Assembly (NCBI RefSeq): GCF_049243625.1 | Contig: NZ_CP046975.1 | Strand: one strand, 5' to 3' | DNA from: Corynebacterium amycolatum | Lineage (GTDB): Bacteria; Actinomycetota; Actinomycetes; Mycobacteriales; Mycobacteriaceae | DNA: 32,000 bases | In this document: in pieces, positions 6,970-28,419 of the stretch | Position numbering within the stretch: the first letter of the stretch is position 1 | Layout of the letters: each line of letters starts with the position of its first letter | Made by a program: the position numbers and the translations under genes | Notes under the pieces: model-generated | What the model saw: the letters and a program-made list of their open reading frames with translations, nothing else | The model's database searches: none | What the model was told of the DNA's origin: nothing

Positions 6970-7029
6970 AACTGTGTATTTTACTGTGAATAATTCGTAG
7001 AACGAATGCGCTGGCGACAAGCCCTAGCC

Positions 7030-9791: not shown

Positions 9792-11727
<1,936 letters not shown>

Positions 11728-11937
11728 GTGATGTACCTTACCCCGATGGTTATATGAATTTCATCATTCGGGGGTTTTGGTGGGGGAAATGTGCTCGGGT
11801 TTTCCGTGCCGTAAGAGTTACGTGCCATAAGGGGTGAACGGCGTTGTCGACGGCTCCCAGTCAACCACCCCGCCCGCCGATAGTTCTAAAACTAGTACCA
11901 ATGTATTTAGTGAAGTAAAGATGATAGCCTCCTTAAG

Positions 11938-14571
11938 GTGCAAACTAGCTGGTCTATTCTTAAGCGAGACTTGCGCCGTCTCCGCAATAGCCCAAGAGTG
12001 TGGGTAATCATCATCGGTGTGATGATTACCCCTGCCTTGTACTCCTGGTTCAACATCCCAGGCTTCTGGGATCCGTACGAGCACACCGAGAACATCGGTG
12101 TGGCAATTGTGAATGAGGACAAAGGCGCGAGTTCCACGGTTACTGGAAGCCTCAATATCGGTAACCAGGTGGTCAAACAACTAAAACAAAATCATGAACT
12201 GGGCTGGCAGTTCCCCGATGCCGAGAAGGCAGACCGAGATCTAAAGCGCGGTAAGGTCTATGCCTCAATCACCATTCCGTCGAATTTCTCCCAGGAAATG
12301 GTTGATCTGATCCAAGGCAAGGGGCATCCAGCAAAACTGACCTACCGCGCTAACCAGAAGATCAACGCAATCTCGCCGCACATCACGGCGCAGGGCGCGT
12401 CCGGCATTGATGGTCAGATCTCCGCTTCCTTTAATAAGGAGATCGCGAAGGCGGTCACCGAGCAGGTCAAGGAAGCTGGCGGTCTGATGCAAGGCCGGTT
12501 CGACGCTGCCCGTCTCAATTCCGCCGACGCTTTCCAGGATGTCGCTGATGCGGTTGCCAATAGCCGCGATGAAGTCGGCGCTATCCAGGAGCAGATTGGC
12601 GATCTGCAGCCGACGATTGCGCAGATTAAGAAGACTCTTGGCAGCGTAGATACGGCCCTCGACGATGCCCAGGATGCGTTGACGCAGGTGCAGGCGATTA
12701 CTGGTGAGCTCAACAACGAGGTCCTGAATTTCTCCGCGGATCTCAACGATGCCTACCTGCAGGGCAGTACCGCCCTGGTAGAGGGCACCGGCAATGCCAA
12801 CGCCGCGATCGGCGCGATGACTGGCAATCTGCAGGGCGCAATTTCCCGTTCGGATTCCGCGACGGCTGCGGCGGAGGACATCGTCAAGCAGGCGGATCAG
12901 GTCATTGGTGGGCTGAATTCCCTGTTGGATGCCAGCCCGCTCAACGGCCCGGATAAGCAGGCAATCCAGCGCACCATCGATGCGCTCGACGAGAGCAACG
13001 CCACCAATAAAGAGCTGGTGGAGGGCCTGAAGAACGTCTCCGGCTCGGCGCAGGGAACTCTCGACTCCCTCAACGCCACCAGCGAGGCATTGGCGCAGGC
13101 CACCAAGGACGGCAAGGCCGCCTCGGATCAGATCCGCGAGGCGTCCCAGGACGCGCTCCCGCAGTTGAGCAGGGCGCTTAATCAGCTCAACGCGCGCGTG
13201 GGCTCGTACGCGGCGGCGCTCGGCGCGCAAAAGGACACCGTCCGGGAAACGTCCGCGCTTCTCGACGCTACGAGTGGGCAGCTTTCCGCCGCGAATCAGG
13301 TCCTCGAGAGTTTCAAGGCTGACCTTGATGGCGTACGCGATGGCCTGGAAACCGCGCGTCTCGATGTTCTTACCCTGGGCACCACCGAAGAGCGCGAAGC
13401 TATGGAAATGGTCAATGACCTCGACCCCGAGGGAATTTCGCAGTTCCTGAGCGATCCGGCCGAGATCCAGACTGAGGCCGTGTTCCCGGTGGATCACTAC
13501 GGCTCGGGTATGGCGGCGCTGTTTACCAACCTGTCGTTGTGGATTGGCGCGTTCATCCTGATTGTGATTTTCCGCGTGGAAGTTGATGCGGAAGGTTTCA
13601 AGGAAATCACGGTCGGCCAGGCGTACATGGGCCGTACCTTGCTGCTGGGCATCATCGCTATTTTCCAGGCGCTGATTGTCTCCATCGGTGACATTGTCAT
13701 TGGTGTGCAGAATGTCAGCGCGGTTGCGTTCGTCCTCACCTGTGTCGTGGTGGAGTTGTGTTATCTCGCCATTATTTACAGTATGGTGGCGGCATTTGGG
13801 CACGTGGGACGCGGTATCGCCGTGGTGCTCGCGTTTATTCAAATCCCTGGTGCCGCCGGTCTCTATCCAATTGAGATGACACCGGACTTCTTCCAGGCAC
13901 TGAATCCGTTCTTGCCGTTGACCTACGGTATTGATGCTCTCCGCGAGACAATTGGTGGTTTCTACTCCAATTACTACCTGAAGAACATGCTCACCCTAAT
14001 GGTCATGGCAGTGATCGCCTACGTGGTCGGCTACTGGCTGCGCCGCAGCTTGTCCTCGGTCAACGTCTTGGTTAACCACCAGCTTGAAGAGGGCGGTCTG
14101 GTCAACAACGAAGAAGTCCATCTGGTCGGTAGTGGGTACAAGCTCAGTGACCTGGTCTTCGCGCTGCGCAACCGCGAGGAGTACCAGACGCGAGTCGATG
14201 AGCGGATGGAGAACCTGCGTGGCAGCTACACGCTGTTCATGCGCATTGCCATTGGTGTCGCAGTGGTCGCCCTGGTGATACTGGGTATTCTGGCCCGCAA
14301 CTACCCGGATCAGAAGGCCCTGTTCTTCGGTCTAGCCTGCCTGTTCGTACTGCTCTGCCTCGCTTACATCGCGGTGCGCGAGTACGTCAAGCAGTCTGTG
14401 ATTCACGCCCAGGAGCTCAGCGAGCTGTCGGAGGAAGAGCTGCGCGCCTACATGGAGCACCAGACTTCCCATCCGCATGCGTACTCGTTGGAAAATGCTG
14501 GCGATACGTTTGAGCCACAGACGAAGGTGTCGTCGGCAAGCGTGAAGACTTCCCCAGAAGGTGAAGCCTAA
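11938..14571 (+). CDS. YhgE/Pip domain-containing membrane protein (ABC-2-like permease fold, long helical ectodomain), paralog 1
   Basis: GTG start. The N-terminus WSILKRDLRRLRNSPRVWVIIIGVMITPALYSWFNIPGFWDPY...IGVAIVNED is typical of YhgE/Pip. A roughly 480-aa Ala/Leu/Gln-rich extracytoplasmic region follows, then a cluster of C-terminal TM helices. Confidence 0.75.
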   Translation: MQTSWSILKRDLRRLRNSPRVWVIIIGVMITPALYSWFNIPGFWDPYEHTENIGVAIVNEDKGASSTVTGSLNIGNQVVKQLKQNHELGWQFPDAEKADRDLKRGKVYASITIPSNFSQEMVDLIQGKGHPAKLTYRANQKINAISPHITAQGASGIDGQISASFNKEIAKAVTEQVKEAGGLMQGRFDAARLNSADAFQDVADAVANSRDEVGAIQEQIGDLQPTIAQIKKTLGSVDTALDDAQDALTQVQAITGELNNEVLNFSADLNDAYLQGSTALVEGTGNANAAIGAMTGNLQGAISRSDSATAAAEDIVKQADQVIGGLNSLLDASPLNGPDKQAIQRTIDALDESNATNKELVEGLKNVSGSAQGTLDSLNATSEALAQATKDGKAASDQIREASQDALPQLSRALNQLNARVGSYAAALGAQKDTVRETSALLDATSGQLSAANQVLESFKADLDGVRDGLETARLDVLTLGTTEEREAMEMVNDLDPEGISQFLSDPAEIQTEAVFPVDHYGSGMAALFTNLSLWIGAFILIVIFRVEVDAEGFKEITVGQAYMGRTLLLGIIAIFQALIVSIGDIVIGVQNVSAVAFVLTCVVVELCYLAIIYSMVAAFGHVGRGIAVVLAFIQIPGAAGLYPIEMTPDFFQALNPFLPLTYGIDALRETIGGFYSNYYLKNMLTLMVMAVIAYVVGYWLRRSLSSVNVLVNHQLEEGGLVNNEEVHLVGSGYKLSDLVFALRNREEYQTRVDERMENLRGSYTLFMRIAIGVAVVALVILGILARNYPDQKALFFGLACLFVLLCLAYIAVREYVKQSVIHAQELSELSEEELRAYMEHQTSHPHAYSLENAGDTFEPQTKVSSASVKTSPEGEA

Positions 14572-16913
14572 TGAGAAACGTTCTTGAAATTGTGCGGAAC
14601 GACTTTCGGGTGATCCGCCAGAACACGATGACCGGCATCATGGTTTTCGGTCTGGTGCTGATTCCGCTGCTGTTCACCTGCTTTAACGTGCTGGCCAGCT
14701 GGGAGCCGTTTGAGAACACCGAAAAGCTGAAGATTGCGGTCGCCAGTAATGACCGTGGTCATCGCACGGATATCGGTGCGATTGACCTCAACTTGGGCAA
14801 TGAGGTGCTGTCGAAGCTGAGCCGTAATCACGACATTGACTGGCGGATTACGGATTCCAATGACGCCATCGATGGCACCAAGTCCGGTGACTACTACGCG
14901 GCAATCGTGCTTCCGGAGAACTTCAGTACCGAACTGATGACCTTCTACGTCCGCGGTACCAAGGCGCCGAAGCTGACGCTCTATACGAATGAGAAGAAGA
15001 ACGCGCTGTCGTCGATCATTACGGGCAAGGGCGCAAGTGGCGTTATTCAGGAGATCGATAAGAACTTCACGCAGGTCGTCGCCAGCGTTGGTTTGGGCGC
15101 AATCACCTCGCTGGATGAGTACCTGGACACCTCCGACTCCAAGCAGGCGCTGACGCGCGTGCAAAACCGCGTTGATGACACCGCCGCGCGACTGCGTTCT
15201 GGCGCGCAGACTGCTCGTTCGCTGTCCACGCTGGTGGAGACCACCGTGCCACTGGTGGAGACTGCGGATTCCATCTTGGAAAACGCTGGTGCGCGGATGG
15301 ATATTCTGCGCAATGGTTCGGGTGACGGCAACGTCGCCGGCGATCTGGAGGCCGCGGTCGGCAATGTCCGCGGCTCGGTTAGCACGGCGCTCGACGCAAC
15401 GCAGGCGAGCTACGAAGGCGTGCGCGACCGGGTCAACGAGCTTGTCGACGGCACCCAGGCCACCAGCGGCGCGACCGCGGATACCTTTGATGCGATGGCG
15501 GCCAAGTTCGGCCAGCAGGCCGATGGTCTGACTGCGATGCGCGACCGCCTGGAAGACACTGTTGGGGCAGTGGTTCCGGGTATCGCGAAGCCGGGCTATG
15601 ACCATGCAATCTCCGACTTGAACACCTCGATTGCTCGCACCCGTGGGCTGCAGGAGAGTTTCTCTGCCGTGGCAGCGGATTTGCGTGGTGGTCGGGATAC
15701 GGGATCGTCGATAAGCCAGGCGAAGGACGCTTTCACGGCTGCGATTGCCGCTGTGGAAAATGCCAAGAACTCCTACGAGCAGAACCTGCGCCCGCAGATC
15801 GACGCACTGTCGGAACCGGTGTCGCGACTGAGCAATGACATCGAGGTCATTGGCGAGGACATTCGCGGCATTCGCGGTACGATTTCCGGCTCGCCGGTGG
15901 ATACGCTGCGTAAGACCAGCGCTGCCACGATGGGCTTGAGCAACCGCTTCGATGATCTGGCCGCTCGTTTCGACGAGATCCACAACGCGCTGGAAGAGGC
16001 GAAGGACACCGGTGATCTCTCGCGCATTGCCGCGGCCATCGGTGACGACCCCAGTGCCCTGGCAGCGCAGTTGGCCGCGCCGGTGCAGGTCGAGGAAGAC
16101 CCCGTCTTCCCAGTCAAGAGCTTCGGTGCGGGCATGGCGCCGTTCTATGCGACACTCGCACTGTGGATCGGTGCGCTGCTGTCGTCGGTGCTGATTCGCA
16201 CCACGGTGCGTAGCCGCGGCGCTCAGAAGGTCGGCGATGAGGTCGGTGCTGATGAGGTCGAGGCCGCGGTCGATGAGGCGCAGAGCGATGAAGCGCTCGA
16301 TGATGCGCAGAGCGATGCAGCCGCTGAGGTCGGCGATGATGCTGACGCCGAGGCCGTCGAGCCCAGCGACCAGCAAATCAACGCTGCCCAGACCGATGAC
16401 TACACCCGCGTCGAGAAGTACTTCGGCCGGTTCGCCACCTTCGCCACCGTTGGCTTGGTTCAGGCCACGCTGATGGTGTTGGGACTCCAGGTGTACGTGG
16501 ACGTCGATCCCGCACACCGATTCCTGATGCTGCTGGCCGGCTGGATGATCTCGCTGGTGTTCATGATGATCGTCTTCTCGTTCGTCTTCACCTTCGACAA
16601 CGCCGGCAAGGCCATCTGCGTGCTGTTGCTGGTGATGCAGGTCTCGGCCGCAGGTGGCGCGTATCCGCTGCCTCTGGTGCCGCAGTGGGTCCAGAACATT
16701 AGCCCGTGGCTGCCGGGTACCTACGCGATTGATATGTTCCGCAGCTCCATCGCCGGTATTTACGAGGCCGACTACTGGAAGCTGATGTTCATGTTGGCGC
16801 TGTTCATCATCCCGTCGCTGATCCTGGCGCTGGGCCTCCAGCGCATCTTTGAAAAGGGAATCAACGGCATCAAGGACGCAATCGAGGAGACGAAGGTGAT
16901 GGCCACCTCGTAA
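14571..16913 (+). CDS. YhgE/Pip domain-containing membrane protein, paralog 2 (with Asp/Glu-rich insert)
   Basis: Its ATG overlaps the upstream stop (TAATG at 14569-14573). It has the same architecture (VLEIVRNDFRVIRQNTMTGIMVFGLVLIPLLF...WEPF...IAVASND). An acidic insert GDEVGADEVEAAVDEAQSDEALDDAQSDAAAEVGDDADAEAVE follows the first C-terminal TM helix. Confidence 0.75.
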   Translation: MRNVLEIVRNDFRVIRQNTMTGIMVFGLVLIPLLFTCFNVLASWEPFENTEKLKIAVASNDRGHRTDIGAIDLNLGNEVLSKLSRNHDIDWRITDSNDAIDGTKSGDYYAAIVLPENFSTELMTFYVRGTKAPKLTLYTNEKKNALSSIITGKGASGVIQEIDKNFTQVVASVGLGAITSLDEYLDTSDSKQALTRVQNRVDDTAARLRSGAQTARSLSTLVETTVPLVETADSILENAGARMDILRNGSGDGNVAGDLEAAVGNVRGSVSTALDATQASYEGVRDRVNELVDGTQATSGATADTFDAMAAKFGQQADGLTAMRDRLEDTVGAVVPGIAKPGYDHAISDLNTSIARTRGLQESFSAVAADLRGGRDTGSSISQAKDAFTAAIAAVENAKNSYEQNLRPQIDALSEPVSRLSNDIEVIGEDIRGIRGTISGSPVDTLRKTSAATMGLSNRFDDLAARFDEIHNALEEAKDTGDLSRIAAAIGDDPSALAAQLAAPVQVEEDPVFPVKSFGAGMAPFYATLALWIGALLSSVLIRTTVRSRGAQKVGDEVGADEVEAAVDEAQSDEALDDAQSDAAAEVGDDADAEAVEPSDQQINAAQTDDYTRVEKYFGRFATFATVGLVQATLMVLGLQVYVDVDPAHRFLMLLAGWMISLVFMMIVFSFVFTFDNAGKAICVLLLVMQVSAAGGAYPLPLVPQWVQNISPWLPGTYAIDMFRSSIAGIYEADYWKLMFMLALFIIPSLILALGLQRIFEKGINGIKDAIEETKVMATS

Positions 16914-16918
16914 GTGGC

Positions 16919-17950
16919 CTAATCCTCCGCCTCCGGCACTGCGCCCGCCTCGTCGCTCTCGCGCTCGGCCTCCGGTTCGCCCTTGCCATCGCGCGAGAGC
17001 TTCCGCAGCCACCAAATCAGCAGCGCAATAATCACCGCCGCTGCTGCCAGGATGGCCCACATCCACCACTGCCACTGCGAACCGCTGCCGTCGAACACGG
17101 ATTCCTCATCAGGATCCATCGGCACCTGGTGCCCCGTCACCAGCAGGCGGTGCGTGTTAATGCCGTAAGGCGTGCACGTAATCAGGGTGATTAGGTCTTC
17201 TCCGGGGACGCGTCGTAAAGCATCGGTTTCATCCGGCTTTACGACGGCTACGTCGTGGACCTCATACTTCAACTTGTGACCCGCGACTGCGATGTAGAAC
17301 GCGTCGCCCTTCTTGACCTTGTCGAGGTTGTCCCACAGCGTCGCATTCTGCAGACCCGTATGCGCCGACAGCGACGCGTGACGACCTTCACCCTCGCCCA
17401 CGCCGCCGACCGGGAAGTCGGTGCCGTAGAGGTGACCGACCCCGCGCGAAAGCGATTTTTCCGACGTGCCGTGGAAAATGGGCAGGTCAGAGTTGATGGA
17501 CGGGATGACGATGCGGCCGAGCGCGTCGGTCTCGCCAAGCACGTCGAGGTAGTGGCGATAGCGCTGGTACTCCGGGGAAGACTCGTCATCGGAGGTGGTC
17601 CAGGCATCGCCCGGATTGACCTCGCCGAGGCTGGCGTTGTACTCGTGGGCCTCGTTCCAGGCGGTGTCCAAGACCTCAGGAGGAGCGGATTTCTCCAGCT
17701 TGGAGTACTCATCTGCGGCGCGGGCCTGCAGGAAGTTATTCCACTGCGTTGCGACAACCGGGTACAGCAGCACGCCCAAACCACCAATGATTAGCAGTAG
17801 GGCGATGATGGTGTTCGAGTTGAGCTTCTTGCCCTTTTGGGGCTTTGCTTTGGTGTTGGTTGCGGCGCTGGCGTTGGTATCGTTTGCGCGTTCGGACTTC
17901 CGCTTAGATGTCGGTTTAGATGCCCGCTTGGAATGGGAATGACGCCCCAT
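16919..17950 (-). CDS. Class C (pilus-type) sortase, orphan copy
   Basis: N-terminal TM, His motif SAHTGL, TLITCTPYGINTHRLLV (Cys plus Arg) and a C-terminal TM (WWMWAILAAAAVIIALLIWW). It is a clear paralog of the sortase at 30922..31959. Confidence 0.85.
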   Translation of the reverse strand: MGRHSHSKRASKPTSKRKSERANDTNASAATNTKAKPQKGKKLNSNTIIALLLIIGGLGVLLYPVVATQWNNFLQARAADEYSKLEKSAPPEVLDTAWNEAHEYNASLGEVNPGDAWTTSDDESSPEYQRYRHYLDVLGETDALGRIVIPSINSDLPIFHGTSEKSLSRGVGHLYGTDFPVGGVGEGEGRHASLSAHTGLQNATLWDNLDKVKKGDAFYIAVAGHKLKYEVHDVAVVKPDETDALRRVPGEDLITLITCTPYGINTHRLLVTGHQVPMDPDEESVFDGSGSQWQWWMWAILAAAAVIIALLIWWLRKLSRDGKGEPEAERESDEAGAVPEAED

Positions 17951-18108: not shown

Positions 18109-19230
18109 TTACCGCGCTGCGGCATCGGTGGAATCTGTGGTGGTGTTTGCGGAGCTTGTGGTGTCGGCGTTTGCGGTGTTTGCATCGGCTTTTGCGGTGC
18201 TTGGGGCGCTTGTGGAGGCTGTGGCGGTGGCTTCTGCCGGCCGAGCCGCCAGGGCAATAGTGGCAGAAATCATGGTCGCCAGTGCGATAAACAGCGCCAC
18301 CCACTGCACACCAACTGCCTGGAAGCGTTCACCAAGAACGATGTATCCCAAGCTGAAGGCAACAATCGGCTCCACGACGGTCATAGCTGGCAGCGAAGCC
18401 TGCAACGGTCCCGCGTTAAAAGCCGCCTGCTGCAGGCCGACGCCAATAACTGCCAGTGCCACCAGCAGCCAGAGTTCCCAGGAGAGCAAGAGCTGGACGA
18501 GTCCGCCGTTGACATAGGTATCGACCACCGACTTAGACAGCAGCGCGACGAAGCCGTACAGCCAGCCGGTTGCCGTGCCGAGCAGCAGGGCCTTCGGGTT
18601 CTGGCGTAGCACTCCGCGCTGTTTCGTGTCTGAGGTGCTACCTGTGCTGTTGTCGGTGCTGGAGCGGTCTGCGATGGCTGGGCTGTCACTCGTGTTGGAG
18701 CCGCTACCTGCGTTGGAGCCGCTACCTGTGTCGGTATTGGGCCACTGAACTGCAGCGGCGTACAGTCCGCAGGTGACCACGCCACCGGCGGCAAGAGCCC
18801 ATCCCCACAGGTAGGTGGGGACATCGGTGGAGCCCGCAGTCGGCTTGCCGAGCAACACCAGCGTCGCCACCGCAAAAGTAAGCGCCACGGACCAAATCAT
18901 CTCTGACCGCGAAATCCGCCGACCATTGACCTTCGCCGCCAGCGGGAGCGTGAGCATCAGCTTCATGACCAACAACGGCTGCACCAGGAGCAACGTGCCA
19001 AATGCCAACGCCGCGACCTGAAATACATACCCGGCAATCGCCAGGCCCGAGCCCAACCACCAGCGCGGCAGTTTCAGGGTCTTCGCCACTCCGCGAAGTG
19101 TGCTGGTGCCCTCTTCCAGTGTTCCGGAGAGGTTGTGGCGGATGACGGTTCCCCACGCGATGCTGAGCGCGGACAGCAGTGCCAGTATCGCAGCGAGAAG
19201 GTCATTGTTCACGTAGGGAATGCTAGGCAT
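18109..19230 (-). CDS. DMT (EamA-like) family transporter with low-complexity Ser/Thr/Gly loop and tail
   Basis: Multi-TM protein with LLAAILALLSALSIAWGTVIRH at the N-terminus. The start is chosen at MPSIPYV (19230) because the preceding 53 codons of the track ORF are non-membrane, Pro-rich and overlap the intergenic region. Confidence 0.6.
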   Translation of the reverse strand: MPSIPYVNNDLLAAILALLSALSIAWGTVIRHNLSGTLEEGTSTLRGVAKTLKLPRWWLGSGLAIAGYVFQVAALAFGTLLLVQPLLVMKLMLTLPLAAKVNGRRISRSEMIWSVALTFAVATLVLLGKPTAGSTDVPTYLWGWALAAGGVVTCGLYAAAVQWPNTDTGSGSNAGSGSNTSDSPAIADRSSTDNSTGSTSDTKQRGVLRQNPKALLLGTATGWLYGFVALLSKSVVDTYVNGGLVQLLLSWELWLLVALAVIGVGLQQAAFNAGPLQASLPAMTVVEPIVAFSLGYIVLGERFQAVGVQWVALFIALATMISATIALAARPAEATATASTSAPSTAKADANTANADTTSSANTTTDSTDAAAR

Positions 19231-19399
19231 GCAACACTTGTCATGTCCACTTCGCAGGGGTTGGGCGGGGCAGTGTTTGGTGCCCGCAGCGCCGTGGGGA
19301 GTCGCTGGCGGATTAGCTGGCCCGGCCAAGATGCTGGCGGATACCGGGAGTTCGGGAGTGACACTGACTGAGCCCGGAGTTCCTGGCACAGTACCGAGA

Positions 19400-22433: not shown

Positions 22434-23081
22434 ATGGATAACCTGTGCAATATCTGCGAACTGATTTCCTCCTTGCCAGCACCGGCTCCGCTGCCGGCTC
22501 CTGAGTTCAACGTGAACTTCCCGGAGGGCCCGCTGGTTCAGGTCGACTCTCTGTTCCCGAATTTCCACTCTCTGACTGAGGGCGGCAACCTGGGTCTGCA
22601 GAATGTCGGCGGCGATCAGGACAACGCTCTGCAGAATGTCGGCGGCAACCAGGGTCTCCAGAACGCTGGCGGCGACCAGCTGAACGGTGGCGACCAGATT
22701 GGTGGCGACAAGCTGGACAAGGGCGACAAGGTCGGCGGCGACCAGGTTAACGACAAGGGCCAGATTGGTGAGCGTCAGTCCGGTTTCCAGACCGGCGGCC
22801 AGGACCAGAGCCTGCAGAACGTCGGTGGCGACCAGGGCCTCCAGAACGGTGGTCAGGAGCAGGGTCTGCAGACTGGTGGTAAGAACCAGAACGGTCTCCA
22901 GACTGGTGGTCAGGAGCAGGGCCTCCAGACCGGTGGTAAGAACCAGGGCGGCCTCCAGACTGGTGGCCAGGAGCAGGGTGCCCAGACCGGCGGCAACAAC
23001 CAGGGTGGTCTGCTGGCCGAGGACGGTGCGGGTGACAACCTGCCAGTTGACCTGGACCTGACTGGCGCAAAGGCTATCTAA
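22434..23081 (+). CDS. Gly/Gln/Asn/Asp-rich tandem-repeat protein of unknown function (about 9-10-aa units GLQNVGGDQ / GLQTGG[QK][EN]Q[G])
   Basis: ATG is preceded by AAAGGA. It is the longest of three frames open across the repeat and uses the codon set common in neighbouring genes (ctg, cag, ggc/ggt, gac). A non-repetitive N-terminal 55 aa shows no obvious signal peptide. Its own terminator lies at 23205. Confidence 0.55.
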   Translation: MDNLCNICELISSLPAPAPLPAPEFNVNFPEGPLVQVDSLFPNFHSLTEGGNLGLQNVGGDQDNALQNVGGNQGLQNAGGDQLNGGDQIGGDKLDKGDKVGGDQVNDKGQIGERQSGFQTGGQDQSLQNVGGDQGLQNGGQEQGLQTGGKNQNGLQTGGQEQGLQTGGKNQGGLQTGGQEQGAQTGGNNQGGLLAEDGAGDNLPVDLDLTGAKAI

Positions 23082-23204
23082 AACCGTCTAAGGCCGTCTA
23101 ACTAAAGCCATCTAAGCTGGCTCGATAACTGCCTTGCGCGGTTAGCGCGACTACTGCGGTTTGCGGTTTGTGGTTATTGCGGTTGTTAATACGCAAGCGT
23201 ACGA

Positions 23205-23244
23205 GCGCCTTCTCACTCCTTGTGGAGTGGGGAGGCGCTTTTTG
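23205..23244 (+). terminator. Rho-independent terminator
   Basis: GCGCCTTCTCACTCC-TTGT-GGAGTGGGGAGGCGC (15-bp stem with G-U pairs) followed by TTTTTG. Confidence 0.8.
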
Positions 23245-23276
23245 CGTTTATGTTCGGCAACCCCGGGCCAATGCGA

Positions 23277-23357
23277 GTTACTGACTAGGTTTATGGCAAA
23301 AATGGCCCGAAAAATGGCCTGAAAGTGCCATAAACTCCTACAGTTTCACATTTGCAG
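23277..23357 (+). repeat. Palindromic intergenic repeat element, copy D
   Basis: GTTACTGACTAGGTTTATGGCA - 27 nt - TGCCATAAACTCCTACAGTTTCACATTTGCAG. Confidence 0.8.
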
Positions 23358-24055
23358 TCCCCTATTCAGTCGCGTTTTACATAACGTGATCTGTTGGAGT
23401 GCCTTGAATCAGACCCACTTTTGTCTGTTAACCGCGGATGGCGAGGTTGGGGACGAGAGGCGATTATTTATGCAGCCGCAATTAGCGCACAATTATGTGG
23501 CTTATTAAATGATGTCCGGGGATTCTTTTGCAAATAGTCTTGAGACGTCATTTTTGCTCTTAGAGATTTATTGGCTTGCATTTTCATTAGGTGGGGGTGG
23601 AGTGTTGGCTGTGCCGTAACTCACAATTATGAAAATCGTGACATGAGAGACATTCTAACCCGAATTAATGCGTGGGGAATTATTGAAAAATCTTCCTATG
23701 CGCAGGTTAATGGTGATTTTATGGGTTGAATGGCTAGGTGTCATGGAGGAAAGTGGAACTTCGGCATGCGTGTAGTATCCAAATGGCTACCCCTGAAAAA
23801 ATGTGCAAACAACAATTATTGGCATTGAAATAAAAGATAATAAGGGTGCCAATTAAATGACTCAACAAACATAAAATGTATTTGTTATATTCGGGGACGG
23901 CCAACGCTATAAATGAGAATTAGAAGGCGATGTCAACTGGGCTACCTGTGATGGGGGCTGGAGACGCTTATGCGTGGTCATTGATTGTTAATTGAAGGCT
24001 GGAAAGGTAGCGAAAGGTGTATAACGCACTGAAATCGAAGGAAGGGGGAGGGCTC

Positions 24056-27000
24056 ATGTTCGGTCGTTTTACAAACGAGAAGCGCTGGTTGGCGCTTTTT
24101 AGCTTCATGGCTGTGCTCGCTCTTTTCTTCGCTAAATCTCCAATAATTGCGCATGCGCAGGAGGCAGAAGACACTGGCGAAACCCTGACGATTCAGAAGA
24201 TTTTGAGTGTTCCTGGAACCGTTGCGGGTGTTGAAGCCAATGGAAATGTCCGTAATTTTGGGCCACTCATCGCGGCATTTGACGAGGCCGCAACTCCATA
24301 TGGTAGCCACAAAATGGGTTACTGCATTGAGGCCAGCGTCGGCGGTGATCTTTATGACACCGGTCGTGTGCAGAACTTCAGTCAGTTTTCGCGCAGTACA
24401 GATACCAATAACAAGCTGCGGAACGACTTTGACCGATACCGGAAGCTCAACTGGATTGCGCACCACGGTTCGCCAGCTGTTGGTTTGGATGAACTGGGGA
24501 AGGCAGCTGGAGTTAAAGGACGCCTGAATGTGCTGGATGCCAATAACGCAACTCAGTTCGCTCTGTGGCACTTCTCCGATGACATTGACTTCTCCCAGGG
24601 CATTCACAACCCATCGACGAAGGCTGTCTACGACTACCTGACTGGTCCGGCTAACGTCGGTCAGGGCACCGTCGACGGTACGAACCGCACTGGCTACATT
24701 TTCAACAATGGTGAGAAGCAAGACATCATTGTGATTGACAATGTCACTCCGTCTTCCGGTGAGGTTCCAGCTGAGCCGACGAAGCCATCTGAGCCAGAAA
24801 AGCCAACCGAGCCAGAGAAGCCGACTACTCCGACCACGCCTGCTGAGACCACGACTCCGTCCGAGTCGACCAAGCCGTCTGAGCCGGAGAAGCCGACCAC
24901 GCTAAAGCCGTCGATTTCCACTCAGGCTCGCCTGAACGGCAACAAGATCGTTGCGGGCGCTGTGGTTAAGGACATCGTGAGGTTCACCGACCTGGTGCCG
25001 GGTAAGAACTACCGCCTGGACGCCACCCTGGTGGACAAGACCAATGCTGACCGCATTCTGGGCACCGGCAGCGTCGAGTTCACTCCGGAGACCTCTTCGG
25101 GTGAGCAGGCTGTCATGATGACCGTCTCCGATGATGTGGATGAGCCGGTTTCCGCTGCTGTTGCATTTGAAAAGCTGACTTCGACAGAGGTCACCGCCGA
25201 TGGCCAGGACAACACTGATGGTCAGCCGGTAGAAATCGCTTCCCACGAGGACATTAACGACGCAGCTCAGACCGTTCACGGCGAAAAGCCAGAGCAGCCG
25301 TCGACCTCCGAAGAGACTCCGACGAGCGAGGAGACAACCGAGGAGACAACGGAGCCGTCGTCCAGCGAGACCGCTACCTCTGAGACCAGCGAATCTGAGG
25401 CTCCGACGACGTCGGAAAGCGAAGAGCAGCCGAGCTCTTCGACGACTACTCCTAACGCCTCCGAGTCCACGAAGCCGGCTGCCCCGACGGAGTCGACCGA
25501 GCCGACTGACAGCACTGAGTCGCAGACCACGGAGCCGACCGAGCCGACTGAGGCCACCGAACCGTCTAAGCCGAGCGAGCCCGCTGATACACCGCTGGAG
25601 CCGGAGCTGCGCACGGTAGCCGAGCTTCAGGGCAACCGCATTGAGGCCAATGCCAAGGTCATCGACACCGTACATTTCGAGGGTCTGGTGCCTGGTAAGA
25701 ATTACACCCTGTCCGGTGAACTGGTTAACAAGGCTGATGGCTCTGTGATTGGTCATGGCGAGGCGACGTTCAAGCCGACTTCCGCAAGCGGTACGGTGAC
25801 TGTCACTCTCGAGGTGTCTGACTCTGTTAAGACTCCTGTTGCTGAGGCTGTCGTATTCGAGCACCTGACCTCTGATGAGGTTGACTCGACTGGTAAAGAA
25901 AGCGCTGGTCAGGTCAATGAGATCGCTGACCACGCAGATATCAACGACGCAAACCAGACCGTGACTGGCGAGGTTCCGGAGAAGCCGGAAGACACCCCGA
26001 CTGAGGAAAGCGAAACTCCGTCCGAGGAAACGACCACACCGGAAACCAGCTCGACTGAGCCGACCACGTCCACCGTTCCGGTAACTCCGAGCGAGGATGA
26101 GCCTTCCGAGCAGCCAGAGACGACACAGCCGGAAGAGCCGTCTGAGACGACAACTCCGTCTAAGTCTGAGTCCGAGAAGCCGTCCAAGCCGGCTCACCCG
26201 GAGAAGCCGAGCAAGCCGACTAAGCCTGCCCAGCCGGAGAAGCCGAGCAAGCCGACTAAGCCTGCCCAGCCGGAGAAGCCGAGCAAGCCGACTAAGCCGA
26301 CGAAGCCTGCCCAGCCGGAAAAGCCAAGCAAGCCGACTAAGCCTGCTCAGCCAGAGAAGCCGAGCAAGCCGTCCAAGCCTGCCCAGCCAGAGAAGCCGAG
26401 CAAGCCGTCCAAGCCTGCCCAGCCAGAGAAGCCGAGCAAGCCGTCCAAGCCAAGCCACCCGAGCACCCCAGCGCAGTCTGAGGACAACCCGGCTATCACG
26501 ACTACTGCCGGTATTGCTGGCAAGGGTCTGATTGAAAAGGGTGCTGTCGTCATCGACACCGTGCACTTCACTGGCCTGAAGCCGGGCACGAAGTACACCC
26601 TGACCGGTGAGTTGATGTGCAAGGAGACGGGCAAGTCCACTGGTGCTAGGAGCCGCCTGCACTTTGTGCCGACGGCATCCGCAGGCACGGTTGATGTTCC
26701 GATCATCATCACTGACGCCGATTGCGCTTCTCAGGTTGCATTCGAGACTCTGACCGATGCTAATGGCAAGGAAGTTGCTGTTCACAAGGACATCAACTCT
26801 GCGGAGCAGACTGTCACGAATGGCAAGACCCCAGAGAACACGCCTGCTGAGCAGCCCAAGGGTGAGGGCGAGCAGAATACGCCTAACGACGATTCCTCCG
26901 CACCCACCAGCGATGCTGCCACCCCGAACACTGTGATTAATCAGCATTCGGAGCAGTACAACACCAACGTCACTGTCATTGGTGGCACTGGCCAGGACAA

Positions 27001-27118
27001 GCAGAAGAACCATGGAAAGCCGTTGGCTCCGAACTCGGAACGACGTGCAATTAGTTCGGTTCCGTCTGGCCCGACCGGTTTGGCTACTCACGCTCTGCCG
27101 ACGGTAGCTACGAACTAA
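24056..27118 (+). CDS. Secreted adhesin: N-terminal thioester (TQXA/TED) domain plus three Thr-Gln ester-bond (VaFE-repeat) domains with long Pro/Thr/Ser/Glu linkers; no canonical LPXTG signal seen
   Basis: Start is chosen at MFGRF (ATG 24056, RBS GAAGGGGGAGG). Signal peptide LALFSFMAVLALFFAKSPIIAHA-QE. Thioester motifs GYCIE (Cys codon 24323-24325) and TQFALW (Gln codon 24554-24556). There are three units of the form [IL]xT.A...VxFE.LT...H.DIN.A.QTV (AVAFEKL/HEDINDAAQTV, AVVFEHL/HADINDANQTV, QVAFETL/HKDINSAEQTV). Confidence 0.85.
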   Translation: MFGRFTNEKRWLALFSFMAVLALFFAKSPIIAHAQEAEDTGETLTIQKILSVPGTVAGVEANGNVRNFGPLIAAFDEAATPYGSHKMGYCIEASVGGDLYDTGRVQNFSQFSRSTDTNNKLRNDFDRYRKLNWIAHHGSPAVGLDELGKAAGVKGRLNVLDANNATQFALWHFSDDIDFSQGIHNPSTKAVYDYLTGPANVGQGTVDGTNRTGYIFNNGEKQDIIVIDNVTPSSGEVPAEPTKPSEPEKPTEPEKPTTPTTPAETTTPSESTKPSEPEKPTTLKPSISTQARLNGNKIVAGAVVKDIVRFTDLVPGKNYRLDATLVDKTNADRILGTGSVEFTPETSSGEQAVMMTVSDDVDEPVSAAVAFEKLTSTEVTADGQDNTDGQPVEIASHEDINDAAQTVHGEKPEQPSTSEETPTSEETTEETTEPSSSETATSETSESEAPTTSESEEQPSSSTTTPNASESTKPAAPTESTEPTDSTESQTTEPTEPTEATEPSKPSEPADTPLEPELRTVAELQGNRIEANAKVIDTVHFEGLVPGKNYTLSGELVNKADGSVIGHGEATFKPTSASGTVTVTLEVSDSVKTPVAEAVVFEHLTSDEVDSTGKESAGQVNEIADHADINDANQTVTGEVPEKPEDTPTEESETPSEETTTPETSSTEPTTSTVPVTPSEDEPSEQPETTQPEEPSETTTPSKSESEKPSKPAHPEKPSKPTKPAQPEKPSKPTKPAQPEKPSKPTKPTKPAQPEKPSKPTKPAQPEKPSKPSKPAQPEKPSKPSKPAQPEKPSKPSKPSHPSTPAQSEDNPAITTTAGIAGKGLIEKGAVVIDTVHFTGLKPGTKYTLTGELMCKETGKSTGARSRLHFVPTASAGTVDVPIIITDADCASQVAFETLTDANGKEVAVHKDINSAEQTVTNGKTPENTPAEQPKGEGEQNTPNDDSSAPTSDAATPNTVINQHSEQYNTNVTVIGGTGQDKQKNHGKPLAPNSERRAISSVPSGPTGLATHALPTVATN
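26174..26460 (+). repeat. In-frame 36-nt tandem repeats encoding EKPSKP[TS]KP[AS][QH]P (about 8 units)
   Basis: Near-identical gagaagccgagcaagccgactaagcctgcccagccg units, read directly. One unit carries an extra KPT. Confidence 0.9.
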
Positions 27119-27127
27119 GGAGATTCC

Positions 27128-27895
27128 ATGACTGATCAGTTTGGCTCGGACGAGGCCGGACAGGAACCTGGAAACGCACCAGGTTACGAACCGGGCATCG
27201 AACCGGAAACCGATACCGGCGCACTCGACCACGTTGATGCGTTTGACCAGGACGAAGACCAGGCCGACGGCCATGTCGAAGACCTGCAGGACGTGCCGTG
27301 GTGGAAGCAGCCAAGGATGTATATCGCCGCTATCGCATTAATCGGCGTTATCGCTCTGCTGGTTATTGGCCAACTGAACCGCAATGATTCGGCGCTCGAA
27401 GGTGCGCAGGAGAATCTGCCCACTCCAGCACAGGGTTCTCGGGGAGCTGTGCACGAGATGGAGATGCTCATTGATGGTAAGTCGGCTCCGATTGATTTCG
27501 TTCAGCTGACTGATCAGGGATCTCTGATTCCGCCGACGGATGTTTCACGCCTTGGCTGGTACTCAGCTTCCGCGATTCCCGGTGAGGAAGGTGCTGCTGG
27601 TTCGTCCGTCATTACCGGCCACGTCAATGAGGTGGACCAGGGTGATGGCTACGCTGCACGTTTCGCTGACCTGAGGGCTGGAGACACTGTCACGGTGAAG
27701 GTGGATGGCGAAAGCCGCGACTTCACCGTCAGCCACGATCCGATTCAGGTGGTCAAGGGCGCTCGGATGCCCGAGGCCGTCAACGATGCAGTTGGTGAGA
27801 ACCGCTTGGTTCTCATTACCTGCGGAGGCGAGTTCGTCGGCGGCACGTTGGGATACGCAGACAACATCATCGTCGAGGCCACCCCGGTGCGCTAA
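27128..27895 (+). CDS. Class F-like sortase family protein (possibly lacking catalytic Arg)
   Basis: Acidic N-terminus and a single TM (MYIAAIALIGVIALLVIG). Motifs GWYSASAIPGEEG, SSVITGHV (His) and LVLITCGG (Cys). The ATG lies 9 nt after the adhesin stop, with GGAG upstream. Confidence 0.7.
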   Translation: MTDQFGSDEAGQEPGNAPGYEPGIEPETDTGALDHVDAFDQDEDQADGHVEDLQDVPWWKQPRMYIAAIALIGVIALLVIGQLNRNDSALEGAQENLPTPAQGSRGAVHEMEMLIDGKSAPIDFVQLTDQGSLIPPTDVSRLGWYSASAIPGEEGAAGSSVITGHVNEVDQGDGYAARFADLRAGDTVTVKVDGESRDFTVSHDPIQVVKGARMPEAVNDAVGENRLVLITCGGEFVGGTLGYADNIIVEATPVR

Positions 27896-28059: not shown

Positions 28060-28419
28060 ATGAACATGTTGAAGAAAATCGGTGTCTGGGGTGTGGGCGC
28101 GCTTGTGCTTGCCGCTCCGGTTGCTACTGCCGCACAGGCGGTAGCTGCACCTGCAACCTCCGCTGACACTGCAGTTGTCGCTCCGGGCAAGGGCGGATTC
28201 CTCCACTCGGGCAAGCTGGCCGTCAACCGCTACGTCTTCGAGCTTGAGCATCGCGATGGCAAGGACTACGTCAACATCACCTTCACGGGTGATCACAGCG
28301 CTGACGTGCAGATCATGCCGGATGGTATGACTCCCGAGGGCAAGAAGAAGGTCGATCAGATCGGTGATGTCCTCAAGCTCAACGGCTACAACGATGTTCA
28401 TTACTGGGCGGTTCTCTAA
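28060..28419 (+). CDS. Small secreted protein of unknown function (119 aa)
   Basis: Internal ATG with RBS AAGGAAG. Signal peptide MNMLKKIGVWGVGALVLAAPVATAAQA-VA. No recognisable motif. Confidence 0.55.
   Translation: MNMLKKIGVWGVGALVLAAPVATAAQAVAAPATSADTAVVAPGKGGFLHSGKLAVNRYVFELEHRDGKDYVNITFTGDHSADVQIMPDGMTPEGKKKVDQIGDVLKLNGYNDVHYWAVL

What the first reader, a model, noticed from the sequence alone, without database searches (positions are those of the whole stretch)
24056..27118. Thioester plus triple Thr-Gln-ester adhesin with no recognisable cell-wall sorting signal
The N-terminal domain carries both halves of the Cys-Gln thioester signature (GYCIE and TQFALW). Three Ig-like units each carry the VaFE Glu, the H-x-D-I-N-x-A-x-Q-T-V tail and an N-terminal [IL]xT.A Thr, which are the features of autocatalytic Thr-Gln ester-bond domains (Clostridium perfringens Cpe0147 type). 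Two points are unusual. First, the ester domains are separated by 100-170-aa P/T/S/E linkers, and the wall-spanner-like EKPSKPTKPAQP array sits before the last domain rather than at the C-terminus. Second, the last 100 aa end in ...KPLAPNSERRAISSVPSGPTGLATHALPTVATN* with no LPXTG, hydrophobic helix or cationic tail. I translated the other two frames of the last 140 nt and found no hidden sorting signal. This is a covalent-binding adhesin in a sortase-rich locus with no obvious way to be anchored.
Basis: partly seen in the sequence, partly recalled or inferred. Interest (0 to 1): 0.7.

Follow-up and report, generated by a model that had tools for sequence, protein, structure and literature searches.

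The report
Covalent adhesin with unusual sortase tag
This Corynebacterium amycolatum surface adhesin lacks the usual LPXTG wall-anchor signal, but it ends in a short conserved tag that in dozens of species sits directly beside a dedicated class F sortase gene, which points to a first natural substrate for an enzyme class with no known role.

Summary
ORF 24056-27118 encodes a 1020-aa secreted protein with one thioester domain (Cys90/Gln167) and three Thr-Gln ester domains, each with the full residue set. The domains are separated by long P/T/S/E linkers. There is no LPXTG motif, C-terminal hydrophobic helix or basic tail.

The conclusion that it has no obvious way to be anchored does not hold. 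The last 37 residues (G.PL...R..I..[IV]P[ST]G...) are the best-conserved part of the protein among C. amycolatum orthologues. The same tag sits at the extreme C-terminus of 48 protein clusters with at least four different domain layouts. In 33 of about 40 evaluable Corynebacterium loci the tagged gene lies directly upstream of a homologue of the next gene here (27128-27895). That gene encodes a membrane-anchored class F sortase (His165, Cys232, Asn246) and starts 10 nt after the adhesin's stop codon. Related sortases in Micromonosporaceae and Pseudonocardiaceae sit next to small proteins with classical GPxTGG or IPAGG + helix + Arg-rich signals.

Best reading: a thioester/ester adhesin carrying a helix-less sorting tag for a dedicated class F sortase. 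Cleavage and wall attachment are inferred, not shown. I found no description of this tag in the literature or in the HMM libraries searched.

The parts
24056..27118 (+). Adhesin coding sequence (1020 aa plus stop): signal peptide, thioester domain, three Thr-Gln ester domains and a C-terminal tag
   Evidence: orthologues are named 'VaFE repeat-containing surface-anchored protein' of C. amycolatum
24056..24160 (+). Sec-type signal peptide (aa 1-35; hydrophobic core LALFSFMAVLALFF; the AHA/QE cleavage site is inferred)
   Evidence: sequence read directly; Kyte-Doolittle maximum 1.99 at aa 14
24317..24655 (+). Thioester domain (Pfam TED, aa 88-200); Cys90 codon at 24323-24325 in GYCIE; Gln167 codon at 24554-24556 in TQFALW
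24905..25285 (+). Thr-Gln ester domain 1 (aa 284-410: Thr289, Asp306, Glu372, His397, Gln405)
25601..25975 (+). Thr-Gln ester domain 2 (aa 516-640: Thr520, Asp537, Glu602, His626, Gln634)
26172..26451 (+). 36-bp repeat, 7.6 copies, encoding the EKPSKPTKPAQP array inside linker 3. This is the most length-variable part among orthologues.
   Evidence: linker 3 is only 65% identical to the window across orthologues
26492..26830 (+). Thr-Gln ester domain 3 (aa 813-925: Thr816, Asp834, Glu897, His910, Gln918)
27005..27115 (+). Conserved C-terminal tag (aa 984-1020: GKPLAPNSERRAISSVPSGPTGLATHALPTVATN plus 3 residues upstream). The core R996-x-x-I-x-x-V-P-S-G1005 lies at 27041-27070.
27117..27122 (+). 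AAGGAG ribosome-binding site of the sortase gene, overlapping the adhesin stop codon. The two genes are 10 nt apart and in the same frame.
27128..27895 (+). Class F-type sortase (255 aa): acidic N-terminal region, membrane helix at aa 64-83 (27317-27376) and catalytic domain at aa ~100-255, with His165 (27620-27622), Cys232 (27821-27823) and Asn246 (27863-27865) at the position where other sortases have Arg
   Evidence: PMC6998099
28060..28419 (+). Small secreted protein (119 aa) of no known family. It is conserved beside the sortase in the amycolatum group. Whether it belongs to the system is uncertain.

Best explanation
The gene encodes a thioester/ester adhesin of Corynebacterium amycolatum.

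Shown by sequence and HMMs: it has a Sec signal peptide and an N-terminal thioester domain (Cys90-Gln167), the warhead that in characterised relatives binds host proteins covalently. Behind this is a stalk of three self-crosslinking Thr-Gln ester domains separated by long, extended P/T/S/E linkers.

Shown by comparison: in place of an LPXTG + helix + basic-tail signal, it ends in a 35-37-aa tag, G-x-P-[LV]-x-x-[ND]-[AS]-x-R-x-x-I-x-x-[IV]-P-[ST]-G followed by 10-17 non-hydrophobic residues. The tag is strictly C-terminal, is found on several unrelated secreted protein types, and is encoded directly upstream of a dedicated class F sortase.

Inferred mechanism: the membrane-anchored class F sortase (His165/Cys232/Asn246) is translated from the same transcript. 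It recognises the tag outside the cell and cleaves at or near [IV]P[ST]|G, forming a thioacyl intermediate. It then transfers the adhesin to the cell wall, most plausibly to the meso-diaminopimelate amine of lipid II or peptidoglycan, as other actinobacterial sortases do. The conserved residues after the Gly would act as an enzyme-docking leaving group that replaces the missing membrane helix.
For: The tag is real. All orthologues end identically. The tag is the most conserved segment, invariant in 36 of 37 columns, and the last 40 codons differ from strain SK46 by 4 synonymous and 0 non-synonymous changes. More distant Corynebacterium adhesins, only 30-55% identical overall, share the tag. 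A 35-position tag profile searched against 1.84 billion representative proteins gave 55 hits. All 48 single-stretch hits end within 4 residues of the protein's C-terminus.

The tag is modular. Carriers include TED+TQ proteins, a TED-only protein (P0289), a Big_8/DUF5979/DUF7601 adhesin (P0292) and secreted proteins with no Pfam domain (P0275, P0277, P0283, P0291).

The tag is coupled to the sortase. Of 43 Corynebacterium-type sortase loci, 33 have a tagged ORF as the nearest upstream tag-bearing gene on the same strand. The gap is 9-214 nt in 26 loci and about 0.9-1 kb in 7. Three further loci have too little upstream DNA to evaluate. The tag regex matched no other ORF among 4832 ORFs in the 70 loci. 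In the reverse direction, I looked up 7 tagged proteins found independently. Five have the sortase as the next gene or next after a tagged paralogue, one has it 5 kb downstream, and one contig ends too early to tell.

The enzyme is a sortase: Pfam Sortase E 1e-11; TGH and TCGG motifs in 118 of 118 homologues; AF2 model pLDDT 81.6, with Foldseek top hits all sortases at TM 0.6-0.66.

The same sortase clade (TCGG.WVGG.LGYADN) in Micromonosporaceae and Pseudonocardiaceae is directly preceded by small proteins with classical tripartite signals, GP[ANDH]TGG or IPAGG + helix + Arg-rich tail. A dedicated adjacent substrate with a P-x-(T)-G core is therefore the norm for this clade.

Operon structure: a 10-nt gap, with the ribosome-binding site overlapping the stop codon.
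Against: No experiment exists, so cleavage, the cleavage site and the acceptor are all inferred. Every known sortase substrate has a membrane helix after the motif, and a helix-less signal has no precedent.

The core P-[ST]-G is one residue shorter than P-x-T-G.

Seven of about 40 evaluable Corynebacterium-type loci have no tagged gene next to the sortase (L004, L008, L009, L015, L031, L032 and one more).

In most other species the tagged proteins carry a conserved hydrophobic segment (K..LWWLLLIPGLGLI..) 83-140 aa before the C-terminus. If that segment is a true stop-transfer helix, their tags would be cytoplasmic and out of reach of a sortase.

In the one study found, deleting all four class F sortases of Actinoplanes gave no phenotype (PMC13251363).

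The sortase scores below NCBIfam's class F cut-off (77 against 166 bits).
Confidence: 0.6

Rival explanations
1. The tag is a non-covalent docking peptide. It binds the class F sortase-like protein, or a wall polymer, and holds the adhesin at the surface without transpeptidation. One variant is a long-lived thioacyl link to Cys232, so that the membrane-anchored enzyme itself is the anchor.
For: The substrate has no membrane helix. The enzyme lacks the canonical catalytic Arg. The conserved residues after the Gly look like a binding epitope. Synteny fits this reading as well as it fits catalysis.
Against: His and Cys are invariant in 118 of 118 homologues, which argues for retained chemistry. 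Arg-to-Asn is reported as the general state of actinobacterial class F enzymes (PMC6998099). A class F enzyme of P. acnes is reported to process LPXTG (as cited in PMC8225981 and PMC11231552). Relatives of this clade pair with classical cleavable signals.
Confidence: 0.15
2. The adhesin is released into the medium or only loosely associated with the cell. In this reading the tag is a propeptide, or a secretion or quality-control signal. The neighbouring sortase either trims it hydrolytically or is functionally unrelated.
For: There is no canonical anchor. Sortases can hydrolyse their substrates when no nucleophile is available (general knowledge). Some sortase loci lack a tagged neighbour.
Against: The tag-sortase adjacency is conserved across at least four unrelated carrier architectures and dozens of species. 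A thioester warhead on a long ester-crosslinked stalk is of little use to the cell unless it is tethered. The tag is under stronger constraint than the neighbouring sequence.
Confidence: 0.12
3. In this family the tag is a cytoplasmic tail, and anchoring is by the upstream WWLLLIPG-type helix. The C. amycolatum protein would then be a derivative that has lost its anchor and keeps a vestigial tag.
For: Most tagged proteins have a hydrophobic segment of about 12-20 residues located 83-140 aa before the C-terminus.
Against: The segment is short, is rich in Pro and Gly in many species (PWWLILIPGIGLGK), and has its basic residues on the N-terminal side. It is absent from the amycolatum group, C. 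otitidis, L012 and a low-GC group, yet their tags remain conserved and sortase-linked. A vestigial tag would not be the best-conserved segment of the protein.
Confidence: 0.06
4. The C-terminus is an artefact: a frameshift, a truncation or an assembly error has removed a normal LPXTG signal.
For: None beyond the absence of LPXTG.
Against: Eighteen independent orthologue clusters and three genome loci have the identical C-terminus. The other frames encode nothing of the kind, and the next gene starts 10 nt downstream.
Confidence: 0.01

Closest known systems
Cpe0147 of Clostridium perfringens and other thioester/isopeptide/ester ('TIE') adhesins such as SfbI and FbaB (Walden et al. 2015, PMC4450167; PDB 4mkm, 4ni6)
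   Same: An N-terminal thioester domain with the Cys and Gln motifs, followed by repeated Thr-Gln ester domains with the Thr/Asp/Glu/His/Gln residue set. It is secreted through a signal peptide.
   Different: TIE proteins are described as almost always carrying a C-terminal LPXTG signal (PMC4450167). This protein has none and ends in the [IV]P[ST]G tag instead. Its ester domains are separated by 100-170-aa low-complexity linkers rather than packed in tandem.
Class F sortases (the P. acnes SrtF; Streptomyces and Actinoplanes SrtF paralogues)
   Same: Sortase fold, N-terminal membrane anchor, His and Cys present, and Asn where other classes have Arg (PMC6998099).
   Different: It scores below the NCBIfam class F cut-off (77 against 166 bits). 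The one characterised enzyme is reported as a housekeeping LPXTG sortase. This one appears to be dedicated to a neighbouring substrate with a helix-less tag. The physiological roles of class F enzymes are stated to be unknown (PMC13251363, PMC11231552).
Dedicated sortase-substrate pairs such as SrtB-IsdC (NPQTN), and the homologous Micromonosporaceae/Pseudonocardiaceae pairs found here (GPxTGG or IPAGG + helix + Arg-rich tail)
   Same: A specialised sortase is encoded next to its own substrate, and the substrate has a variant Pro-containing motif near its C-terminus.
   Different: All of those substrates keep the hydrophobic helix and basic tail after the motif. The Corynebacterium tag has only 10-17 polar or small residues after the Gly.
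Mobiluncus mulieris adhesin ester-bond domains (PDB 8dj2, 8fha, 8f90, 7uc3)
   Same: Actinobacterial Thr-Gln ester domains that align to all three domains here.
   Different: The comparison covers the stalk domains only. I did not compare how those proteins are anchored.

Membership tests
Thioester domain (TED) adhesins | Match to Pfam PF08341 above the gathering score | tested here: met
   60.0 bits against a cut-off of 22; aa 88-200
Thioester domain (TED) adhesins | Thioester-forming Cys in [YFW]C[IV][EQ] and Gln in TQxA[IVL]W | tested here: met
   GYCIE (Cys90) and TQFALW (Gln167). The TIGR03934 TQXA_dom match is below its cut-off (26.2 against 30.4). No solved TED matches by sequence.
Thioester domain (TED) adhesins | Actual Cys-Gln thioester bond and covalent binding to a target | not testable with these tools
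   Needs intact-mass spectrometry (a loss of 17 Da) and binding assays
Thr-Gln ester-bond domain (Cpe0147 type, PF18202 / NF033903 VaFE repeat) | HMM match above the cut-off, in repeated copies | tested here: met
   PF18202 at 205.6 bits in 3 stretches; NF033903 at 151.9 bits in 3 stretches; aligns to 4mkm and 4ni6
Thr-Gln ester-bond domain (Cpe0147 type, PF18202 / NF033903 VaFE repeat) | Bond-forming Thr and Gln plus the catalytic His, Asp and Glu in every domain | tested here: met
   T289/D306/E372/H397/Q405; T520/D537/E602/H626/Q634; T816/D834/E897/H910/Q918. The choice of Thr in domain 3 (ITTTA) is ambiguous among Thr815-817.
LPXTG cell-wall-anchored surface proteins | LPXTG-like pentapeptide near the C-terminus | tested here: not met
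   No L[PAS].T[GASN] motif in the protein or its orthologues. TIGR01167 gives no hit, although it does hit the neighbouring pilin.
LPXTG cell-wall-anchored surface proteins | Hydrophobic helix and basic tail after the motif | tested here: not met
   The highest 19-residue Kyte-Doolittle mean after the signal peptide is 1.2, inside ester domain 3. The last 15 aa are PTGLATHALPTVATN.
Class F sortase (the neighbouring gene, 27128-27895) | Sortase fold and Pfam Sortase domain | tested here: met
   PF04203 at 45.1 bits against a cut-off of 26.6. AF2 model pLDDT 81.6; Foldseek top 50 hits are all sortases, TM 0.58-0.66.
Class F sortase (the neighbouring gene, 27128-27895) | NCBIfam NF033748 above its curated cut-off | tested here: not met
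   77 bits against 166. It is nonetheless the best-scoring class, and database homologues are named class F sortase.
Class F sortase (the neighbouring gene, 27128-27895) | Catalytic His and Cys, with Asn replacing the canonical Arg (reported as the class F hallmark in Actinobacteria, PMC6998099) | tested here: met
   TGH in 119 of 120 homologues. TCGG followed by GY[AES]DN in 113 of 118. No conserved Arg in the 19 aa after TCGG.
Class F sortase (the neighbouring gene, 27128-27895) | Transpeptidase activity on the adjacent protein's C-terminus | not testable with these tools
   Needs an enzyme assay or genetics
Proposed [IV]P[ST]G C-terminal tag / class F sortase pair | Tag located at the extreme C-terminus of secreted proteins | tested here: met
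   48 of 48 single-stretch profile hits end within 4 residues of the C-terminus. Full-length carriers have signal peptides.
Proposed [IV]P[ST]G C-terminal tag / class F sortase pair | Tagged gene encoded next to the sortase | tested here: met
   33 of about 40 evaluable loci, and 6 of 7 reverse look-ups. In the window the gap is 10 nt.

The most novel reading that the evidence does not exclude
The [IV]P[ST]G tag is a new kind of sortase sorting signal that works without a membrane helix or basic tail. It is read by a dedicated class F (His-Cys-Asn) sortase. If so, Corynebacterium thioester/ester adhesins are the first natural substrates assigned to class F sortases outside Cutibacterium. A further, more speculative layer concerns the conserved WWLLLIPG hydrophobic segment that most other species carry about 100 aa upstream of the tag. 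It may be a segment that crosses or sits in the mycolate outer membrane. It is missing from C. amycolatum and C. otitidis, two species that make no mycolic acids (the latter from my own knowledge).
Probability: 0.3. Interest if true: 0.85.

Novelty: new variant of a known kind. Interest (0 to 1): 0.68.

Why it matters
Class F sortases are widespread in Actinobacteria, but reviews and a 2026 knockout study state that their physiological role is unknown. A conserved, genetically linked candidate substrate with a defined recognition tag makes that question directly testable by peptide cleavage assays, a sortase deletion and C-terminal mass spectrometry.

If the tag is processed, it would be the first sorting signal without a membrane-retention helix, which would change how surface proteomes are predicted. 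LPXTG-based predictors miss these adhesins in skin and mucosal corynebacteria such as C. amycolatum, C. tuberculostearicum and C. afermentans.

The carriers are covalent-binding adhesins of opportunistic pathogens and dominant skin commensals, so how they are anchored bears on colonisation. A short helix-free sortase tag would also be useful for protein ligation.

Tried and rejected
- Truncation or frameshift: rejected. All orthologues share the same end, the other frames are empty, and the next gene starts 10 nt away.
- Known C-terminal sorting-domain models: scanning three tag sequences against NCBIfam at E up to 10 found nothing relevant. Pfam finds only TED and TQ.
- Word-indexed search with the tag alignment: two calls failed on parameters. 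The third returned only short contig-end fragments and told nothing about carrier diversity. The exhaustive representative search answered that question.
- First AF2 model of the full sortase from 15 sequences: pLDDT 59, unusable. Repeating it on the catalytic domain with 67 sequences worked.
- phmmer of the sortase and of the TED region against PDB: no hits. The profile search and hhalign against class C sortases aligned only as far as the TC motif, so the Arg position could not be aligned by profile. It was settled by column counts, by the model's secondary structure and by the literature (PMC6998099).
- My initial idea that the missing Arg marks a pseudo-enzyme: dropped. Arg-to-Asn is reported as the normal state of actinobacterial class F sortases.
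- The P. acnes SrtF paper (Biochem J 2019): not held in the library.
- Link between loss of the WW segment and lack of mycolic acids: only partly consistent, because L012 also lacks the segment. I keep it as speculation only.
- An automated pick of 'the upstream ORF' in high-GC loci chose overlapping out-of-frame ORFs. I replaced it with a signal-pattern scan.


Full report
**What is there.** The window is Corynebacterium amycolatum DNA. The adhesin's orthologues are 82-94% identical proteins named 'VaFE repeat-containing surface-anchored protein [Corynebacterium amycolatum]', and the flanking sortase matches C. amycolatum SK46 at 92%. The ORF runs 24017-27118. ATG 24056 follows a strong ribosome-binding site and gives 1020 aa.

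Pfam finds one thioester domain (TED, 60 bits, aa 88-200) and three Thr-Gln ester domains (PF18202, 205.6 bits in total). NCBIfam finds three VaFE repeats.
- Thioester domain: Cys90 in GYCIE and Gln167 in TQFALW.
- Ester domain 1: T289/D306/E372/H397/Q405.
- Ester domain 2: T520/D537/E602/H626/Q634.
- Ester domain 3: T816/D834/E897/H910/Q918.

The ester domains align to the solved Cpe0147 domains (4mkm, 4ni6) and to the Mobiluncus adhesin ester domains. The linkers are 105 and about 170 aa of P/T/S/E-rich sequence. The EKPSKPTKPAQP array is a 36-bp repeat of 7.6 copies at 26172-26451, and it is the most variable region among strains. There is no LPXTG-like motif, no hydrophobic stretch after the signal peptide and no basic tail. 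The other frames hide nothing.

**The C-terminus is not a loose end.** All 18 orthologue clusters end with exactly ...GKPLAPNSERRAISSVPSGPTGLATHALPTVATN. Across 17 aligned sequences the last 37 residues are invariant in 36 columns, against 45 of 58 in the stretch just before them. The last 40 codons differ from strain SK46 by four synonymous changes and no non-synonymous ones.

More distant Corynebacterium adhesins from C. singulare, C. marquesiae, C. afermentans, C. tuberculostearicum and C. otitidis are only 30-55% identical overall, yet they end in the same pattern: G-x-P-[LV]-x-x-[ND]-[AS]-x-R-x-x-I-x-x-[IV]-P-[ST]-G, then 10-17 non-hydrophobic residues that often end in [ML]-P-x-[YF]-I.

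A 35-position profile of this tag, scored against 1.84 billion representative proteins, gave 55 hits at E <= 1e-3. Seven were multi-stretch low-complexity matches. All 48 single-stretch hits place the tag within four residues of the protein's end. The carriers are mostly TED/TQ adhesins. They also include a TED-only protein (P0289), a Big_8/DUF5979/DUF7601 adhesin (P0292) and four secreted proteins with no Pfam domain. The tag therefore behaves as a portable C-terminal module. No model in NCBIfam or Pfam matches it.

**The partner gene.** Ten nucleotides after the adhesin's TAA, with AAGGAG overlapping the stop codon, starts a 255-aa protein (27128-27895). It has an acidic N-terminal region, one membrane helix (aa 64-83) and a sortase domain (Pfam E 1e-11). 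The best NCBIfam class is F, at 77 bits against a cut-off of 166.

An AlphaFold model of the catalytic domain built from 67 homologues (pLDDT 81.6) matches only sortases in the PDB, with TM 0.58-0.66. TGH (His165) and TCGG (Cys232) are essentially invariant in about 120 homologues. No Arg is conserved after the Cys, and GY[AES]DN occupies the start of the last strand. At first this looked like a crippled enzyme. However, Arg-to-Asn is reported as the normal state of actinobacterial class F sortases (PMC6998099, citing Malik and Kim 2019), so it supports the class F assignment.

**Coupling of tag and sortase.** An alignment of sortase homologues was used to scan one genome per species. Among the 43 Corynebacterium-type loci, 33 have a tag-bearing ORF upstream on the same strand. 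In 26 of these the gap is 9-214 nt. In 7 it is about 0.9-1 kb, with a small divergent gene between them. Three loci are cut by contig ends. Seven have no tagged neighbour. The tag regex matched no other ORF among 4832 ORFs of at least 100 aa in all 70 loci.

The reverse test gave the same answer. Starting from seven tagged proteins found by the profile search or the homologue search:
- Four have the sortase as the very next gene (P0291, P0289, P0263, P0283).
- One has a second tagged paralogue and then the sortase (P0275).
- One has the sortase 5 kb downstream (P0079).
- One sits on a contig that ends too early to tell (P0295).

The linkage holds for carriers with unrelated N-terminal domains, which argues that it is the tag, not the adhesin domains, that travels with the sortase.

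**Relatives with classical signals.** The same sortase clade (TCGG.WVGG.LGYADN) occurs in Micromonospora, Plantactinospora, Longispora, Catellatospora and Pseudonocardiaceae. There the gene directly upstream encodes a small protein ending in a textbook tripartite signal. That signal is GP[ANDH]TGG, or IPAGG in Pseudonocardiaceae, followed by a hydrophobic helix and an Arg-rich tail. A strict pattern finds this in 17 of 26 loci, and inspection adds at least three more. A dedicated neighbouring substrate with a Pro-x-(Thr)-Gly core is therefore the rule for this clade. The Corynebacterium tag looks like the same idea with the helix and basic tail removed.

**Most likely mechanism.** The protein is exported by Sec. 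The thioester domain is the covalent warhead. The ester-crosslinked domains and extended linkers form a long stalk. The C-terminal tag is recognised outside the membrane by the co-translated class F sortase and is probably cleaved at [IV]P[ST]|G. The adhesin is then passed to a wall amine.

The first three steps follow from family knowledge of TIE adhesins (PMC4450167) and the sequence evidence here. The functional link between tag and sortase rests on comparative genomics and is well supported. Cleavage, the cleavage site and the acceptor are inference. I put about 0.7 on the tag-sortase functional link and about 0.4 on covalent wall anchoring specifically.

Rival readings are non-covalent docking to the sortase, hydrolytic release of the adhesin, and a cytoplasmic-tail model prompted by the feature described next.

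**An unexplained feature in relatives.** Most tagged proteins in other species carry a conserved hydrophobic segment, such as KKKLWWLLLIPGLGMIPAVLGGG or PWWLILIPGIGLGK, 83-140 aa before the C-terminus. It is absent from the window's protein and its group (L001-L003), from C. otitidis (L043), from L012 and from a low-GC group (L071).

If it were a true stop-transfer helix, the tag would be cytoplasmic in those species. That is hard to square with the helix-free but equally conserved, sortase-linked tags of C. amycolatum and C. otitidis. Both of these species lack mycolic acids (from my own knowledge), so the segment may relate to the mycolate outer membrane. The numbers are small and L012 is an exception.

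**Known or new.** The adhesin's domains are known and already annotated, so that part is ordinary. Full-text searches for class F sortase plus Corynebacterium, for TED/ester adhesins plus sortase, for 'VPSG' plus sortase, and for class F substrates found no description of this tag or of a helix-less sorting signal. Reviews and a 2026 study say that class F function is unknown. I rate it a new variant of a known kind: a dedicated sortase-substrate pair with a non-canonical signal. Interest is moderately high because it gives an orphan enzyme class a testable substrate.

Noticed in passing
window 29200-29202 (within the pilin gene, ~29095-30708, + strand): The SpaH/EbpB-type LPMTG major pilin has an in-frame TAG just after its signal peptide (…APAAIAQDTAVN*AAGDSPL…). 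C. amycolatum SK46 has CAG (Gln) at the same codon. In this strain the pilin is therefore either a nonsense pseudogene or carries a read error, while its class C sortase (30922-31959) is intact.
   Followed up: partly
L005-L041 and proteins P0019-P0030, P0250-P0292 (83-140 aa before their C-termini): Most tagged proteins of other Corynebacterium species carry a conserved hydrophobic motif, K..[LP]WW[LI][LI]LIPG[LI]GL.., upstream of the tag. It is missing from the C. amycolatum group, C. otitidis, L012 and a low-GC group. Its function is unknown. A link to the mycolate outer membrane is possible but speculative.
   Followed up: partly
window 27116-27130: The adhesin stop codon (TAA) and the sortase ATG are in the same reading frame, three codons apart (…VATN*GDSMTDQF…). 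Read-through would fuse the two proteins. This is probably coincidental, since other species have gaps of 135-214 nt.
   Followed up: no
window 28060-28419 (+): A small secreted protein of 119 aa with no family match is conserved immediately after the sortase in the amycolatum group (L001-L003, 56-98% identity). Weak matches occur near the sortase in L004, L011 and L012. It may be a third component of the system.
   Followed up: partly
window 22434-23081 (+), 23203-23240 and 23260-24050: A 215-aa Gly/Gln/Asn-rich ORF is built from 27- and 57-bp tandem repeats (GGDQGLQN…) and has no signal peptide or family. It is followed by a strong hairpin terminator and then about 800 bp of AT-rich (GC 0.41) non-coding DNA upstream of the adhesin. 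The ORF is 99.5% conserved in L002.
   Followed up: partly
window 16919-17950 (-): A second class C sortase (277 bits) has no pilin gene beside it. Its neighbours are a DMT transporter (18109-19389) and two large ABC-2/YhgE-like membrane proteins (11938-14571 and 14571-16913).
   Followed up: no
L044-L070 (for example L060 9292-9798, L053 8996-9607, L044 7554-9218): In Micromonosporaceae and Pseudonocardiaceae, class F sortases of the same clade are each preceded by a small protein (about 170-550 aa) ending in GP[ANDH]TGG or IPAGG + helix + Arg-rich tail. These look like undescribed dedicated class F substrates with a Gly/Ala-Pro-x-Thr-Gly motif.
   Followed up: partly
L071/L072 (GC 0.38) 6001-8043 and 12951-13823: An unidentified low-GC organism carries a tagged TQ adhesin (…APRQVIGSVPSGDYSVTGSTLFNR) and a matching sortase (GYNQN). 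A ClpB-like AAA+ gene and a multi-pass membrane protein lie between them.
   Followed up: no
L076 1782-2840 and 3257-4108: Two tandem paralogous tagged proteins with no Pfam domain, both carrying the WW-type hydrophobic segment, precede a single sortase gene. One sortase may therefore serve several substrates.
   Followed up: partly
window 8546-9589 and 9942-11837 (+): Two sizeable ORFs (347 and 631 aa) have no Pfam or NCBIfam match.
   Followed up: no
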